From Escherichia coli (GTDB lineage Bacteria; Pseudomonadota; Gammaproteobacteria; Enterobacterales; Enterobacteriaceae): a DNA stretch of 64,000 bases. Of the stretch, positions 44,601 to 50,600 are shown piece by piece. The position numbers are program-made. The stretch is from assembly GCF_016026235.1 (NCBI RefSeq), contig NZ_CP065613.1, one strand, 5' to 3'. Each line of letters begins with the position of its first letter. Within the stretch, counting starts at the first letter, position 1.

Positions 44601-47600
44601 TCGCACCAATTAACCTCAGAATTCATTTCAATGATAACTAAAGGCTTTATAAAAATAATTCTTCAGGAGAGGCACTTGGTAAACATAATTTTACTAAATA
44701 GATTGCAGATTATAATCTGATACAAAAACATTAATCACACTTCTTGTCCACACAGACCCACATTTCCCTATTCTATTGAAATTCACTTAAAACTCATCCA
44801 TGACATCATCAAATATAAAAATACATTTGCAAATCAAAAGCATTATCCAATATTTCTTTATAAGATTTGCCGAATTATCTCCAAGAGGCAAAGTGGCGCT
44901 TAAAAAACAAACACAGCGGATTTATATGATGTTTGGCAACAGCATTAACAGCATAGTGGGAGAAATAATAAAGAGATTTAAACAGACCAAACTTTAAATA
45001 TTTCCTGTAAAAGGCCCATTGTGAAAATATTATTTTTAATTTATTTGACGAGAGTGTATCGGTGCCTACTCGATAATAGGCCAGTGTTTCGTTCAAACAA
45101 TATGCATAATCAATTTTATCTAAAATGCTCAGCCATAGTGCCATGTCCTGTCTTTTCCTGATTGTTGGCATAAACATTTTACCAAGAGATGAAGTATCAT
45201 ATACAGCTGTCAAGCAACCTATTACATTAGTCTTTAATAATTCAGAATAATTAACTTTAGAAACAGGATTAATTTGGGATAAAAGTTTCCCGCTAAAACT
45301 AACCTTTTGATATGAGGTATAAGTGAAAGCATAATTATTTGAAAGCATAAAGTCTATCTGTTTTTTTATTTTCTCTTTATGCCAAAAATCATCACTATCT
45401 AAAAAAGCGATAAACCGACCTTTAGCTTTACTGATCGCTATATTTCTTGACATACCAGCCCCATAATTCTTCTCATTTGAAATGAGAACAACTCTTGAAT
45501 CTTTTTTTTGATATTCCCTGCAAATAGACACTGTATTATCTGACGAACAATCATCGACAATAATCATTTCTATATTATTATATGATTGAGATAGAACAGA
45601 ATCAATTGTACATCTAATCGTTCTTTCAGAATTATATGTGGGTGTTATGACTGAAACTAAATATTTATCGGTACTCATAGAATCATCTCAAACTTACATA
45701 AGTTTCATTATATAATGTCATGTTTATCATATCCATCCTTGGTAGCTTATTAAGAAATTTCACATATTAAATATTTATCAAGTATTTCATTAACATCCCA
45801 CCTTAATATAAAAAGCCGTTAATTAAGAGAGTAACTACAAAGCAAAGCAAAGCAAAGCAAAGCAAAGCAAAGCAAAGCAAAGCAAAGCAAAGCAAAGCAA
45901 AGCAAAGCAAAGCAAAGCAAAGCAAAGCAAAGCAAAGATGGTTTTATAAAAATATTGACAGTGAATAAAATAGCACATTAAAATCGTCTTATTTATATCC
46001 TTTGGGATTGTTTTTTTGCCAACGCCAAGAATCAATTATCATTGTATCTAAATCATATCGAGAAGACCACCCTAATTCTAAAAATGCTAGAGATGGATCA
46101 GACCAACATTCAGCTATATCACCAACTCGACGAGGTTTGAAACAATAAGGGATATCAATTCCAGTACAACGTTTAAAGGTATTTATCACATCAAGAACTG
46201 AATAACCAACCCCTGTACCAAGATTATATACTTTATAATTTCCCCCAAAATTACGGTGTTCTAAAGCAGCTATGTGCCCTTCAGCCAAATCCATAACATG
46301 AATATAATCTCTAATGCCTGTTCCATCAGGTGTAGGATAATCATTTCCGAATACTGATAAATATTTTAGATTACCAATAGCCACTTGAGTAATATAAGGA
46401 ATTAAATTATTTGGAACACCATTAGGATCTTCGCCTAATAGACCAGAAGAGTGGGCTCCTACAGGATTGAAATAACGCAAAATAGTAATACGCATTGTTG
46501 GCTCAGCCAAAGCTATATCCTTCAAAACCCTCTCTACTATAAGTTTTGAAAAGCCATATGGATTAGTTGTTCCGCCAACGCTACTATCTTCCTTCAAAGG
46601 AATAGTTTCAGGCTTACCATACACTGTTGCGGAGGAGCTAAAAATAAAACTAATAACGCCAGCGCGCATCATTTCTTCAAGTAAAACAATAGTTCCGTTA
46701 ACATTGTGATCATAATATTCCAATGGATTTGAAACAGATTCAGCGACGGCTTTTAATCCTGCAAAATGAATAACATCTGTAATATCATGATACTGGAAAA
46801 TATGTTTGAGTTTTTTCCTATCACGCACATCACCATGATAAAATAGAGGCCTACGTCCACAAATTTTTTCGACCCTTTCTAACGACTTAGACGATGAGTT
46901 CGATAGATTATCCAACACCACCACATTTTTTCCGTATGATAATAAGGATAATACAGTATGTGAACCAATGTAACCTGCACCACCAGTAACCAAAATAGTC
47001 ATAAAACTCCTTATATTTCATCTATCTGCCTAGGATATAAAACAAGAATATAAACACATTATAAATAGTATAAACTGTGAAAGAATAAAAATTTAGAATA
47101 GTTAAGCCCAATGTTACTATAAAAATACAATATGCAAGTATACGTTATTTTTCTAAACATCTCGACATATTGTATGAGTCTAACACTATATTGCATTTTT
47201 TTCGTGTAAATTATGTTCTAGTGGTGTCAGTAATTCGAGCAATTTATGAGGCCTTTTATTCTTGTACAGTATGCAATATTGAGCCTGTTTATGATTGACA
47301 TATTCAGATTTTCAAAGAGCAATTCTTCATTAAACTCAATAAACGGCTATCTCAGTGATCGGTTAAAGCGCTCACAGATGGTGTTCATTTTCGGCGTATC
47401 GAGATAAGCCTATTGGTGCCTGATAGCGGCTTCCTGTAGCTTTTTGTCAAATTTTCCCAGGAACTCTTCCCCATAATCGGGTATATTCTGGTTGATTCCA
47501 ACAGGTAACAACCGAGCTTGATGGCAGAAGAAACTCATGATTACATCACTGTTAAGCGACGTTACCGCCACCGCCAAAGCGTAGTTGCTGCGTTCGTCAA

Positions 47601-50600
47601 TCACGGTAATAACATAACGCCGATTCTGAGCTCAATATAAGCTCACCGGTCTTTAGCGGGCTAATAGTACCTTGGACTTGAAGTCTGGGAACCCAGTTAC
47701 ACCAGTATTAGCCACATTTTATCATGTGCTGCCTAGCTCATTCCTCCAATAGTGGAGACGCTCGGGCAGGCCAAATGCTACTGTTCACACTACAGATTCA
47801 GACGGTCAAAAATCTGTTCTTTTCCAAGGTTGAGAAGTCCTATTCTAATTCATCATATTTCTTTCAAAATTTCTGGATGTCATAGTTTTGTAAGACATAC
47901 TAGAAAGATTTACTACTTGAGATAAGCACTTCCGAGCCTATATATTAAACGCGTATTGATACACAAAAATTTTCTGCGGATGCATTGATTCCATGTCTTT
48001 CCCTAAAATGCAGGGTTTTCATTCTTAATTTTGCAATATCAGGCATGGCATTGTATTCCATCGCATAGATTGTTGCACGGTAATGCCCGAAACACCTGAC
48101 GCCGATATGTTGGTTCAACATAACAATCTCTCCTTTCTTATCTGGAGACAATTGCAACATCTCTGAAAACTTACACTCTGCCCATCGTGTACATAACCAA
48201 AGACAACAGAAATATGTCACGCCTTTTTCCAAATTCCAATTTATATTCCTTACTCTTATAACACAAGGAGTATCTGAATATATAAGAGTGAAGGAGTGCT
48301 TTGGCAAAAATATTTAATTCAAAGATATAAAACACAATCGATTTAGTATCAAAAGATTACTCAGTAATCTTTCACCAAATAAATTAGTTCAAAATAACAC
48401 TACAGCAATGGCAATAAAACCATTCCATGAAATAGCAACATAAACACGCAAATAGAATTTCCACGTAAATTTATAACACTTACCAATCCAAAACATTATT
48501 TATTATAGATTGTATTCATGGGATTATCACCTGGTTCAGTTATAGATTTGTGATCTATGTAGTTCACTATTCTTACAGTTCTCAAAAAACTTAAATTAAA
48601 TTGTTGCGCTATTACCCTATAGTCTTTAAATACCCATAAAAACAAAGGCAAAAACCAATTTGTTTTACAGATATCTAGAATAAGATAATATGTCAACAAT
48701 TAACAAGTTACTACTATTGTTTGTTAATAAAAACCTGCAATTAAAATAATAATCATGCATTAACCGAACCCCTTCTTATTAATCTTTTTTTATGACAAAT
48801 ATAAAAAGATGAAAATATATATATATATATTATTTTCATATATGCAACATTCAAAAATATAACCTCGCCTTTATAATGAAAAGAAAAACTGAGTATCGTA
48901 ATCATTAATACAACTATTTTAGGTTTGATGCTATTAGCAGCATAAATAGTCAAAAAAATAAAAAATAAAAAATAAAAAATAACCGATGGTACCGCACCCA
49001 AAAATAATGCTAACCGCATAAATCCAGCATCGGTCCCGAGATAATATGTCCCATCCTTTAACGTATAGTACCCATCACCAATGAAGATCTGTTTTTCTGT
49101 TAACGGAAAATACATATTAAATAATGCATCTGTAGATGTTGTTGATAACTTTCCTGAATCTAAATAATAATATAACATTTGAAAAGAATAATCCGAATAT
49201 TTTTTCAAGATATCATAAACATGTTCATTTAAAAAAAATCTCCAAAAAATAAATAAAAACAGAGATACATAAATCAAAATTTGAAGCGCCCGATAAAACT
49301 TCTTTTTATAATCAGAGCAAATAAAACTATATACCCCTCCGAGGACAAACCCCAAAACAGCCGTACGCCCAGCAGAAATTGACGCGAACAGCAAGAGTAT
49401 GATAAAAAATAATTTAAAAAAGAAAGGAATATTACAGTCTTCCTCATTAAACCAAACAATTGAAAGAAAAGATAATAATGACATAATTATAGCAAGACCA
49501 AAGGCAACAGAACCTGATATACCTAATCCCCTGATGCCTCCATATGTATTACTCATAAATTCTATTTCTTCTTTTGTTCTAATAATACTTTGAATATAAG
49601 CATTTATACTGGGAAAAAACATCATCAGAATAATAAAAAAGGATTGTAAGAGGGCAATTAGAAAAAACAATTTCAACACATTATCATTGTTATGCTGGAT
49701 TAAGTGCGACGCAATTATAACAGAGCTGAATAATGCAGCGAAATTATTAAAGATAACCCCCATGATAGATAAATCTCCTGTACCATTTAATACCAATGAA
49801 ATACAAGAAAAAAAGAGCATGCAGGCCAAAGACAAAAACGCAATAAAAAATATTCTTGTACTTATTAGACTAAAAAAAACAGTCCTTATCCTGATATTTG
49901 TAATTAAATAAATCAAGGAGAAAATATATATAAGATAGCCTGAATTAAAAAAAACAGGGATGCTAAAAGCAAACACAAATAAAAACAACAAAAATACATC
50001 AAAAAAAACCTTCATAAAAATTCCTTTTGTGACACGACCCGATAATAAATATCAACCATACGCTTTGTGTTTTTATTTATATCAAACATTTTTATTATTG
50101 TATCTCGGTTATATTCAATCGAACACCTATATTGATTACTATCTATTAATTTCACACACCTTGAAAAAACAGATTTCATGTCAATATCATCATGCAGATT
50201 CAAATACATTGCATGATTTCCTAATAGCTCTCTGTTTGCATCGATGTCTGATACTATCGGAAAACAATTACATAAAACGCCCTCCATTAAAGATAATGGA
50301 GCACCATCATTGCTAGGAATACTAAGAACAAAATCAGATTTATGAAGAATCGACCTTAATTCCTCTTTTTGAATAAACCCTATTAAATTTACTTTATAAT
50401 TATCTCCCTCACATTTTTTTGTGAGTTCTATTATCTTATCATGTGTGGTCTTTGACGATGAGCGGCCTAGTATATTGATATTAAAAAAGTACCCTTTACA
50501 ATCATAATCTTTCATATCAATAACAGCTTCTAAAAAGGACTCTATGTTATAAATATTATCCCAATTTCTTACAGAAGTTATTGTTATACATTTATCGTCC

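What the first reader, a model, noticed from the sequence alone, without database searches (positions are those of the whole stretch)
47003..48752. 1.75-kb gene-poor stretch between wzy and gne with decayed ORFs, possible IS1-like remnant
Only short ORFs; one (47410-47604) weakly resembles the C-terminal region of IS1 InsB. This suggests an old insertion or deletion event inside the cluster that could separate gne and the last GT2 transcriptionally from the upstream genes.
Basis: inference. Interest (0 to 1): 0.3.

Follow-up and report, generated by a model that had tools for sequence, protein, structure and literature searches.

The report
Dead IS481-type element between wzy and gne
The 1.75-kb gap in this E. 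coli O143-type O-antigen gene cluster holds a complete but long-dead IS481-family insertion sequence (not IS1) between two stretches of unidentifiable AT-rich DNA, an ordinary scar of how the cluster acquired its gne gene.

Summary
Bases 47003-48752 are a 1750-bp stretch with no intact gene, lying between wzy (48753-50015, minus strand) and gne/galE (45989-47002, minus strand) of an E. coli O143-type O-antigen cluster.

The IS1 reading is wrong. The gap contains a full-length but dead IS481-family insertion sequence at 47171-48176 (1006 bp). Both terminal inverted repeats are present. The transposase reading frame is covered from residue 1 to 348 but carries about 12 stop codons, at least 3 frame changes and about 89 bp of deletions. 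The closest named relative is ISKpn28.

The IS lies in the same orientation as the operon and has no target-site duplication. It is flanked by 576 bp and 168 bp of AT-rich DNA with no detectable homologue.

Two syntenic clusters, one in Gallaecimonas and one on a metagenome contig, have wzy followed directly by the last GT2 gene. The whole 3.07-kb wzy-to-GT2 interval (spacers, IS and gne) is therefore an insertion relative to them.

The gap is the same 1750 bp in all but one of the O143-type genomes examined (one lacks a single base).

I found no predicted terminator, the sense RNA is C-poor, and a JUMPStart/ops element sits upstream. Read-through transcription is therefore likely but untested.

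RefSeq already annotates the pseudogene. This is an ordinary finding of low interest.

The parts
47003..48752 (.). The whole wzy-gne gap (1750 bp), made up of spacer A, the IS fossil and spacer B
   Evidence: The ORF list shows no intact gene. Four of 5426 complete E. coli genomes carry the gap at 99.5-99.6% identity. In all 8 contigs that reach gne (9 places were returned for the identical Wzy), the called wzy-gne spacing is exactly 1750 bp.
47171..48176 (-). Complete but dead IS481-family insertion sequence (1006 bp, 40.1% GC), in the same orientation as the O-antigen genes
   Evidence: The ends were defined by aligning it with three relatives (L003, L004, L005); similarity stops at exactly these positions in all four. 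The intact relative in L004 is 1095 bp, delimited against an empty hokA site. Nucleotide identity to that relative is 67.2%.
47171..48121 (-). Transposase pseudogene, with about 12 in-frame stops, at least 3 frame changes and internal deletions
   Evidence: tblastn with WP_001178372.1 (348 aa) covers residues 1-348 in frames -3/-2/-1/-3, joint E=1e-74. The reconstructed protein hits NF033577 (IS481) at E=1.9e-20 and rve_3 at E=3.5e-5. PGAP annotates the equivalent of 47186-48121 as 'integrase core domain-containing protein; frameshifted; internal stop'.
47410..47604 (-).
   Evidence: It lies inside a 108-residue tblastn piece that is 69% identical. It matches the NCBIfam IS481 model at E=4.4e-4 and no IS1 model.
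48150..48176 (.). Terminal inverted repeat at the transposase 5' end (AATTGCAACATCTCTGAAAACTTACAC)
   Evidence: It aligns with the conserved end ...AATTGCAATATCTCTGTGAACTTACAC of L003, L004 and L005.
47171..47197 (.). Terminal inverted repeat at the transposase 3' end (TGTATGAGTCTAACACTATATTGCATT)
   Evidence: It aligns with TGTATGGGTCCACCACATATTGCAATT of L004 and L005.
48177..48752 (-). Spacer A: 576 bp of AT-rich (28.1% GC) DNA between the wzy stop codon and the IS, of unidentified origin
   Evidence: Distant-mode blastn finds it only in the 4 O143-type genomes. Its longest frame has no protein relative in 5.8 billion proteins, and none in 1.84 billion representatives apart from its own ORF call. 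There are no Pfam hits. A six-frame tblastn against related loci found nothing.
47003..47170 (-). Spacer B: 168 bp of AT-rich (23.8% GC) DNA between the IS and gne. It includes the gne ribosome-binding site AAGGAG (47007-47012), 4 nt before the ATG.
   Evidence: Sequence read. No homology was found.
45989..47002 (-). gne/galE, the gene just downstream. It is part of the segment that the syntenic clusters lack at this position.
   Evidence: It matches NCBIfam GalE models at E=4e-138. Its closest relatives are Edwardsiella and Yersinia GalE at 69-71% identity. No gene lies between wzy and the GT2 in L018 or L023.
56801..56839 (-). JUMPStart element with ops (GGCGGTAG) upstream of the first O-antigen gene. 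It is relevant to read-through of the gap.
   Evidence: Pattern match at 56805-56812 (-). The sequence CAGTGCTCTGGTAGCTGTAAAGCCAGGGGCGGTAGCGTG was read.

Best explanation
The gap is the fossil of one insertion sequence plus two short stretches of anonymous AT-rich DNA.

Shown:
- A full-length IS481-family element of the ISKpn28 group lies at 47171-48176, with both inverted repeats.
- It points the same way as the O-antigen operon.
- Its transposase gene is destroyed by about 12 stop codons, at least 3 frameshifts and about 89 bp of deletions, so it can no longer move or make a protein.
- It is present in both haplotypes of the O143-type cluster.

Inferred from comparison: in the nearest syntenic clusters wzy is followed within 14-75 bp by the last GT2 gene. 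The 3.07-kb interval in O143 (spacer A, IS, spacer B, gne, and an intergenic region containing a (CAAAG)n repeat) is therefore an insertion. The IS has no target-site duplication and most likely marks the junction of the event that brought a gne gene of enterobacterial type into an older cluster.

Inferred about transcription: the fossil has no present function. gne and the last GT2 are probably still expressed mainly by RfaH-assisted read-through from the JUMPStart promoter. The gap has no predicted terminator, its sense RNA is a poor Rho substrate, and gne keeps its own strong ribosome-binding site.
For: Family and completeness:
- megablast and blastn hits are to 'IS481 family transposase' features.
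- tblastn covers residues 1-348.
- NF033577 matches at E=1.9e-20 and no IS1 model matches.
- Both ends align with three relatives, and similarity stops at the same bases in all of them.
- An intact relative is delimited at 1095 bp with a 6-bp duplication.
- ISKpn28-family hits come from the plasmid search.

Fixation:
- Nearly every O143-type locus examined has the same 1750-bp gap; one lacks a single base.

Insertion relative to relatives:
- L018 and L023 share 9 genes in the same order, at 41-69% and 35-62% amino-acid identity.
- In them the wzy-to-GT2 gaps are 75 bp and 14 bp.
- O143 gne is closer to Edwardsiella/Yersinia/Serratia GalE (65-71%) than to the epimerase of the syntenic Gallaecimonas cluster (59.7%).

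No target-site duplication:
- The flanks are ACATAT and TCTGCC, whereas L004, L005 and the equally decayed K5 copy in L003 keep 6/6, 6/6 and 5/6 matching bases.

Read-through:
- 0 terminator-like sites against 2.7 expected.
- The sense RNA is 15% C and 19% G, and none of 168 windows has C-G >= 0.10.
- A JUMPStart/ops element is present.
- Liu et al. 2019 (PMC7685785) use the gne in the O143 cluster to deduce GlcNAc as the initiating sugar. By inference, gne supplies the unit's GalNAc and must be expressed.
Against: - Only two independent syntenic relatives were found, and both are distant (Wzy 42-46% identity). No O143-like cluster without the IS, or of intermediate form, exists in the databases searched. 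The order of events is therefore not resolved: the IS could have arrived with gne, before it or after it.
- A 6-bp duplication could simply have eroded.
- No donor for gne or for the spacers was identified.
- Promoter-like sites occur on the sense strand inside the gap (48530->48502, 47165->47137, 47074->47047). An internal promoter therefore cannot be excluded, although such hits are no more frequent than in shuffled sequence (36 found, 33.3 expected).
- No transcript data were available.
Confidence: 0.75

Rival explanations
1. Simple late insertion. gne already lay next to wzy, separated by about 740 bp of intergenic DNA. An IS481-type element hopped into that spacer and then decayed, and its 6-bp duplication eroded. 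On this reading the IS had no part in assembling the cluster.
For: The IS is complete with both ends, as expected for a simple transposition. It lies in non-coding DNA and disrupts no recognisable gene. The sequence is heavily decayed, so erosion of the duplication is conceivable.
Against: The flanks match at only 1 of 6 positions, while the similarly decayed K5 copy keeps 5 of 6. A 740-bp non-coding spacer would itself be unusual in a cluster whose other genes abut or overlap. The syntenic relatives have neither gne nor a spacer at this position.
Confidence: 0.3
2. The gap acts as an internal promoter or regulatory region. Transcription of gne and the last GT2 starts inside the gap, from the old transposase promoter, the IS end or the AT-rich spacers. 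This would make them a separate unit.
For: Sense-strand promoter-like sites lie at 48530->48502 (10/12), 47165->47137 (9/12, 6 bp beyond the IS end) and 47074->47047 (9/12, about 45 bp before gne). The IS is co-oriented with gne, so transposase-promoter transcripts would run into gne. From my own knowledge, outward promoters are described for IS481 in Bordetella.
Against: Promoter-like hits are at the chance level for this AT-rich sequence (36 found, 33.3 +/- 7.0 expected). Nothing in the gap would stop upstream transcription. A JUMPStart/ops element is present upstream. This rival is not exclusive of read-through.
Confidence: 0.25
3. Spacer A, with or without spacer B, is the wreck of a further gene that the IS or later decay destroyed, for example a second acetyltransferase or a gene from the gne donor.
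For: On the operon strand the stop-free runs are longer (67-69 codons; 82 codons across the joined spacer A/spacer B junction). The spacer keeps the T-rich coding-strand skew of its neighbours.
Against: No homologue was found in any search. T-rich strands have few stop codons by composition alone. The cluster already holds every function that the syntenic clusters hold.
Confidence: 0.15
4. The remnant is IS1-like (InsB).
For: None from the tools. It rested on visual resemblance only.
Against: No IS1 model matches at E<=1, while the IS481 model matches at E=4.4e-4 for the ORF alone and at E=1.9e-20 for the reconstructed protein. All DNA-level relatives are annotated as IS481 family. The terminal repeats match IS481-group relatives.
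Confidence: 0.01

Closest known systems
IS481-family insertion sequences of the ISKpn28 group (e.g. the intact 1095-bp copy next to hokA in E. coli O27:H7 B4103-1, transposase WP_001178372.1)
   Same: A single transposase gene with an N-terminal helix-turn-helix and an rve-type catalytic core. The terminal repeats are the same (TGTATG.GTC...ATATTGCA / CAATTGCAA.ATCT.TG..A.CTTACAC). The size is about 1.0-1.1 kb.
   Different: Only 67% nucleotide identity and about 50-60% amino-acid identity to the nearest relatives. It has about 12 stops, at least 3 frameshifts, is about 89 bp shorter, is 40% GC against 50%, and has no target-site duplication. It is dead.
IS elements and IS remnants inside E. 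coli/Shigella O-antigen gene clusters (Liu et al. 2019, PMC7685785: 23 clusters with mobile elements, 9 with gene remnants, 14 with non-coding regions; Iguchi et al. 2015, PMC4379981: IS629 in O18ab, ISEc11 in O164, IS1 in O62)
   Same: A mobile-element scar plus non-coding DNA inside an otherwise tightly packed, low-GC galF-gnd cluster. In those reviews such features are read as traces of cluster assembly or gene replacement.
   Different: The element here belongs to the IS481 family, is very old, and is fixed in the serogroup. The papers I could read do not describe it for O143. Whether Liu et al. 2008 (Shigella O antigens, S. boydii 8) do could not be checked, because that paper is not held.
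IS481-family pseudogene in region 2 of the K5 capsule cluster, next to kfiC (locus L003)
   Same: It is the longest DNA match to the window's fossil (67.2% over about 1 kb). It is also frameshifted with internal stops, and also lies in a large intergenic gap of a low-GC polysaccharide cluster.
   Different: The K5 copy is antisense to the flanking genes and keeps a 5/6 target duplication. The O143 copy is in the sense orientation and has no duplication.
IS1 (InsA/InsB)
   Same: Both are small enterobacterial insertion sequences that are common in Shigella/EIEC genomes.
   Different: There is no sequence similarity, and the ends and gene layout differ.

Membership tests
IS481 family insertion sequence | Transposase homologous to the IS481-family transposase model | tested here: met
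   The reconstructed pseudo-protein hits NF033577 at E=1.9e-20 (73.6 bits; below the curated 224-bit cut-off, as expected for a decayed copy). tblastn to an intact member gives E=1e-74 over residues 1-348. That intact member itself scores 221.6 bits, just under the cut-off, so the group is a divergent branch.
IS481 family insertion sequence | rve-type (DDE) integrase core domain | tested here: met
   rve_3 at E=3.5e-5 on the reconstruction. There are weak rve and rve_3 matches on a single frame. The second D (IPDYGEEF) and the E (ICERFNRSL) motifs are readable. The first D region is lost in a deletion or frameshift.
IS481 family insertion sequence | Terminal inverted repeats delimiting an element of about 1-1.3 kb | tested here: met
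   Both ends align with three relatives, and similarity ends at 47171 and 48176.
IS481 family insertion sequence | Short direct target-site duplication flanking the element | tested here: not met
   ACATAT against TCTGCC, 1 of 6 matching. The relatives have ACACAG/ACACAG, AGGAGA/AGGAGA and (A)GTGAC/(T)GTGAC. This is compatible with erosion or with a rearrangement at the IS, and it does not affect family assignment.
IS481 family insertion sequence | Intact transposase gene (an active element) | tested here: not met
   About 12 in-frame stops, frames -3/-2/-1/-3, and internal deletions. PGAP annotates it as 'frameshifted; internal stop'.
IS1 family (InsB) | Similarity to the IS1 transposase | tested here: not met
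   No IS1 model in NCBIfam at E<=1 for the ORF or for the reconstruction. No DDE_Tnp_IS1 hit in Pfam at E<=1.
E. coli O143-type O-antigen gene cluster (reported as identical or similar to a Shigella O antigen) | O143-specific wzx and wzy between galF and gnd | tested here: met
   Genomes 99.5-99.6% identical over the gap carry PGAP-named 'O143 family O-antigen flippase/polymerase' genes. [quoted passage not shown]
RfaH/ops-controlled operon | JUMPStart sequence with an ops element upstream of the first gene | tested here: met
   CAGTGCTCTGGTAGCTGTAAAGCCAGGGGCGGTAGCGTG at 56801-56839 (-). RfaH dependence itself cannot be tested with these tools.

The most novel reading that the evidence does not exclude
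The fossil and its spacers have been co-opted as a regulatory module. An internal promoter or processing site in the gap, together with the hypervariable (CAAAG)n tract just downstream of gne, could make expression of gne and the last glycosyltransferase variable between cells. O143-type O-antigen synthesis would then be variable as well. This would be an unusual repeat-driven switch for an E. coli O antigen.
Probability: 0.07. Interest if true: 0.55.

Novelty: already known. Interest (0 to 1): 0.12.

Why it matters
It matters little beyond getting the annotation right. The gap is a dead IS481-family element, not IS1, and RefSeq already flags it as a transposase-type pseudogene.

The one modest addition is evolutionary. 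Nine genes of the O143-type cluster (three of them plausibly for the serinol amide, plus an acetyltransferase, wzx, three glycosyltransferases and wzy) occur in the same order in Gallaecimonas and in an unidentified 34%-GC organism. The E. coli version differs by a 3-kb insert carrying this IS and a gne of enterobacterial type. That fits the accepted view that IS elements help assemble O-antigen clusters.

For typing or PCR design, the useful point is that the 1750-bp gap is stable across O143-type genomes, whereas the neighbouring (CAAAG)n tract is not.

Tried and rejected
- IS1 identity: rejected.
- Spacer A as a tail of wzy: rejected. The 420-aa Wzy is full length against relatives of 412-450 aa.
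- Spacer A or B as a recognisable gene remnant. No hit came from:
  - Pfam;
  - the 5.8-billion-protein word search;
  - the full HMMER scan of 1.84 billion representatives, which returned only the locus's own 60-aa ORF call and one borderline repetitive hit at E=5e-4;
  - six-frame tblastn against all fetched loci and the rest of the window;
  - joining the two spacers across the IS.
- A donor for the gne-GT2 segment among E. coli serogroups: none closer than about 65-69% DNA identity. The nearest GalE proteins are at 71% or less.
- An IS-free version of the O143 cluster: none found. The next Wzy relative is only 46% identical.
- RNA genes in the gap: no Rfam match at E<=1 and no tRNA.
- Repeats flanking the 3-kb insert: none found.
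- Inverted-repeat search to find the IS ends directly: uninformative. The ends were obtained instead from an empty-site comparison and a multiple alignment.
- Literature: Liu et al. 2008 (Shigella O antigens) is not held, and the supplements of Liu et al. 2019 are not held. I therefore could not check whether the remnant is described in print. The K5 paper I searched had nothing on the kfi intergenic gap.
- One script printed an over-long difference list; the comparison was redone per segment.
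Full report
**Setting.** The window carries an E. 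coli galF-gnd O-antigen cluster on the minus strand.
- gnd lies at 42617-44029, a family-2 glycosyltransferase (GT2) at 44875-45678, and gne/galE at 45989-47002.
- The gap under study spans 47003-48752.
- Upstream of it lie wzy at 48753-50015, two more glycosyltransferases, and wzx at 51999-53204.
- Four of 5426 complete E. coli genomes carry the gap at 99.5-99.6% identity. In them PGAP names the neighbouring genes 'O143 family O-antigen polymerase/flippase'.
- This is therefore the O143-type cluster. [quoted passage not shown]

**The observation.** The coordinates are exact. The wzy stop codon and the gne start codon are separated by 1750 bp containing only short ORFs of 120, 67 and 64 aa. 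The stretch is not uniform: GC rises from about 0.28 to 0.41-0.47 around 47200-47800, which already suggests a foreign insert.

**What the core of the gap is.**
- DNA searches match 'IS481 family transposase' features in hundreds of E. coli genomes over window positions about 47162-48188.
- An intact relative lies next to hokA in strain B4103-1 (transposase WP_001178372.1, 348 aa). It was delimited against empty hokA sites as a 1095-bp element with a 6-bp duplication, ACACAG.
- tblastn of that transposase against the window covers residues 1-348 in four collinear pieces, in frames -3, -2, -1 and -3, from 48121 down to the IS end. Identity is 41-69% and the joint E-value is 1e-74. About a dozen stop codons and two internal deletions are visible.
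- A reconstruction of the protein hits the NCBIfam IS481 model at E=1.9e-20 and Pfam rve_3 at E=3.5e-5.
On its own it hits the IS481 model at E=4.4e-4, and no IS1 model appears.
- A multiple alignment with three relatives shows that both terminal repeats are present and that similarity ends at 47171 and 48176 in all four sequences.
- The element is therefore complete end to end: 1006 bp, 67.2% identical to the intact relative, about 89 bp shorter, and 40% GC against 50%.
- The nearest named element in annotated plasmids is ISKpn28, at about 49% amino-acid identity. Unnamed E. coli and E. albertii plasmid copies reach 58-60%.
- RefSeq already annotates the equivalent of 47186-48121 as a frameshifted 'integrase core domain-containing protein'.

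**The rest of the gap.** Spacer A (48177-48752, 576 bp, 28% GC) and spacer B (47003-47170, 168 bp, 24% GC) have no detectable relatives.
- Distant-mode blastn finds spacer A only in the O143-type genomes.
- Its longest frame finds nothing among 5.8 billion proteins.
- A full HMMER scan of 1.84 billion representatives returns only the locus's own ORF call plus one borderline repetitive hit.
- Pfam is empty.
- Six-frame comparison with related loci is empty.
- Joining the spacers across the IS gives an 82-codon open run with no family match.
- Wzy is full length compared with its relatives, so spacer A is not a wzy tail.
- No Rfam family or tRNA lies in 44000-49000.
- Spacer B ends with the gne ribosome-binding site AAGGAG, 4 nt before the ATG.

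**Comparative evidence.**
- The closest Wzy relatives outside O143 (46% and 42% identity) lie in clusters with the same gene order: aminotransferase, HAD hydrolase, ATP-grasp ligase, hexapeptide acetyltransferase, wzx, GT2, GT1-type, wzy, GT2.
- One is on a 34%-GC metagenome contig (L018) and one is in Gallaecimonas pentaromativorans (L023). Protein identities to the window are 41-69% and 35-62%.
- In both, the last GT2 follows wzy after 75 bp or 14 bp. In the window the two genes are 3074 bp apart.
- Everything between them is therefore an insertion relative to these clusters: spacer A, the IS, spacer B, gne, and a 310-bp intergenic region.
- The inserted gne is closest to Edwardsiella, Yersinia ruckeri and Serratia GalE (65-71%). 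It is less similar to the GalE-like gene that sits elsewhere in the Gallaecimonas cluster (59.7%). This fits a separate origin.
- The window's IS has no target-site duplication (ACATAT against TCTGCC). The relatives keep theirs, including the equally decayed copy beside kfiC in the K5 capsule cluster.
- Taken together, I read the IS as a scar at the junction of the event that brought gne in. Simple late insertion followed by erosion of the duplication cannot be excluded.
- No donor was found, and no IS-free O143-like cluster was found.

**Population data.**
- In all 8 contigs that reach gne (9 places were returned for the identical Wzy), the called wzy-gne spacing is exactly 1750 bp.
- Two haplotypes of the cluster exist and both contain the IS. 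They differ by 7 substitutions in the gap: none in the 1006-bp IS, 6 in spacer A and 1 in spacer B. The numbers are too small to interpret.

**Transcription.**
- The scan finds no terminator-like site on either strand in 44000-50100, against 2.7 expected.
- Promoter-like sites are at the chance level, 36 found against 33.3 expected.
- The IS is co-oriented with the operon.
- The sense RNA of the gap is C-poor: 15% C against 19% G, and none of 168 windows of 80 nt has C exceeding G by 10 points. By established knowledge of Rho loading sites, this makes it a poor Rho substrate.
- A canonical JUMPStart with ops lies upstream of the first gene. By established knowledge, RfaH recruited at ops suppresses termination and polarity in long polysaccharide operons.
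- Liu et al. 2019 use the gne in the O143 cluster to deduce GlcNAc as the initiating sugar (PMC7685785). By inference gne supplies the GalNAc of the repeat unit, and it must therefore be expressed.
- I conclude that read-through is the more likely route. An additional internal promoter remains possible. None of this has been tested.

**Verdict.** The IS1 label is wrong, and 'old insertion' is right. The feature is an ordinary, already annotated IS pseudogene of the IS481 family in a known O-antigen cluster. The only new element is the comparative inference that the IS and gne together form an insert into an older nine-gene cluster. Interest is low.

Noticed in passing
window 45838-45937 (between gne and the last GT2): There is a perfect pentanucleotide repeat, (CAAAG)20, which reads CTTTG on the coding strand. 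Its copy number differs among O143-type genomes: 11, 14, 16, 19, 20, 22, 23 and 25. Short-read contigs break at this tract. It is absent from the syntenic L018 and L023 clusters. It may be a source of variable expression of the last glycosyltransferase.
   Followed up: partly
window 48753-50015 (wzy); L001 10932-12013, L016 6431-7512, L017 6432-7513: PGAP marks wzy as 'frameshifted' in all three O143-type complete genomes whose annotation I inspected (L001, L016, L017). The 420-aa ORF is nevertheless intact there and in the window, and it is full length against relatives of 412-450 aa. This is probably an artefact of the reference protein used for naming.
   Followed up: partly
window 41299-42594 (-): An intact IS4-family transposase gene (431 aa, NF033591 E=1e-107) lies between gnd and ugd. 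Strain D10 lacks it. This is a recent insertion, in contrast to the fossil in the gap.
   Followed up: partly
window 44030-44874: A second gene-free AT-rich stretch (845 bp, 28% GC) lies between the last GT2 and gnd, with no detectable homology. Strain 200177 (L017) lacks about 214 bp of it.
   Followed up: partly
L003 1446-2480 (E. coli K5 capsule region, next to kfiC): A related, equally decayed IS481-family pseudogene fills the large gap beside kfiC. It is antisense to the kfi genes and keeps a 5/6 target duplication. It is the longest DNA match to the window's fossil.
   Followed up: partly
window 22426-22433 and 31417-31424 (-): Two further exact ops motifs (GGCGGTAG) lie far from the O-antigen cluster. 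Three matches in the window against 1.16 expected by chance. Their context was not examined.
   Followed up: no
L018 (Logan SRR13107671) and L023 (Gallaecimonas pentaromativorans GCA_001247655.1): Nine genes of the O143-type cluster occur in the same order in distant, probably aquatic Gammaproteobacteria: aminotransferase, HAD hydrolase, ATP-grasp ligase, acetyltransferase, wzx, two glycosyltransferases, wzy and the last GT2. This points to an old origin of the cluster outside the Enterobacterales.
   Followed up: partly
PMC7685785 against window 44875-52143: Liu et al. 2019 state that the O143 cluster has one glycosyltransferase more than expected. I count three glycosyltransferase genes. From my own knowledge the repeat unit has four sugars and is initiated by WecA, so three is the expected number. 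The discrepancy is unresolved.
   Followed up: no
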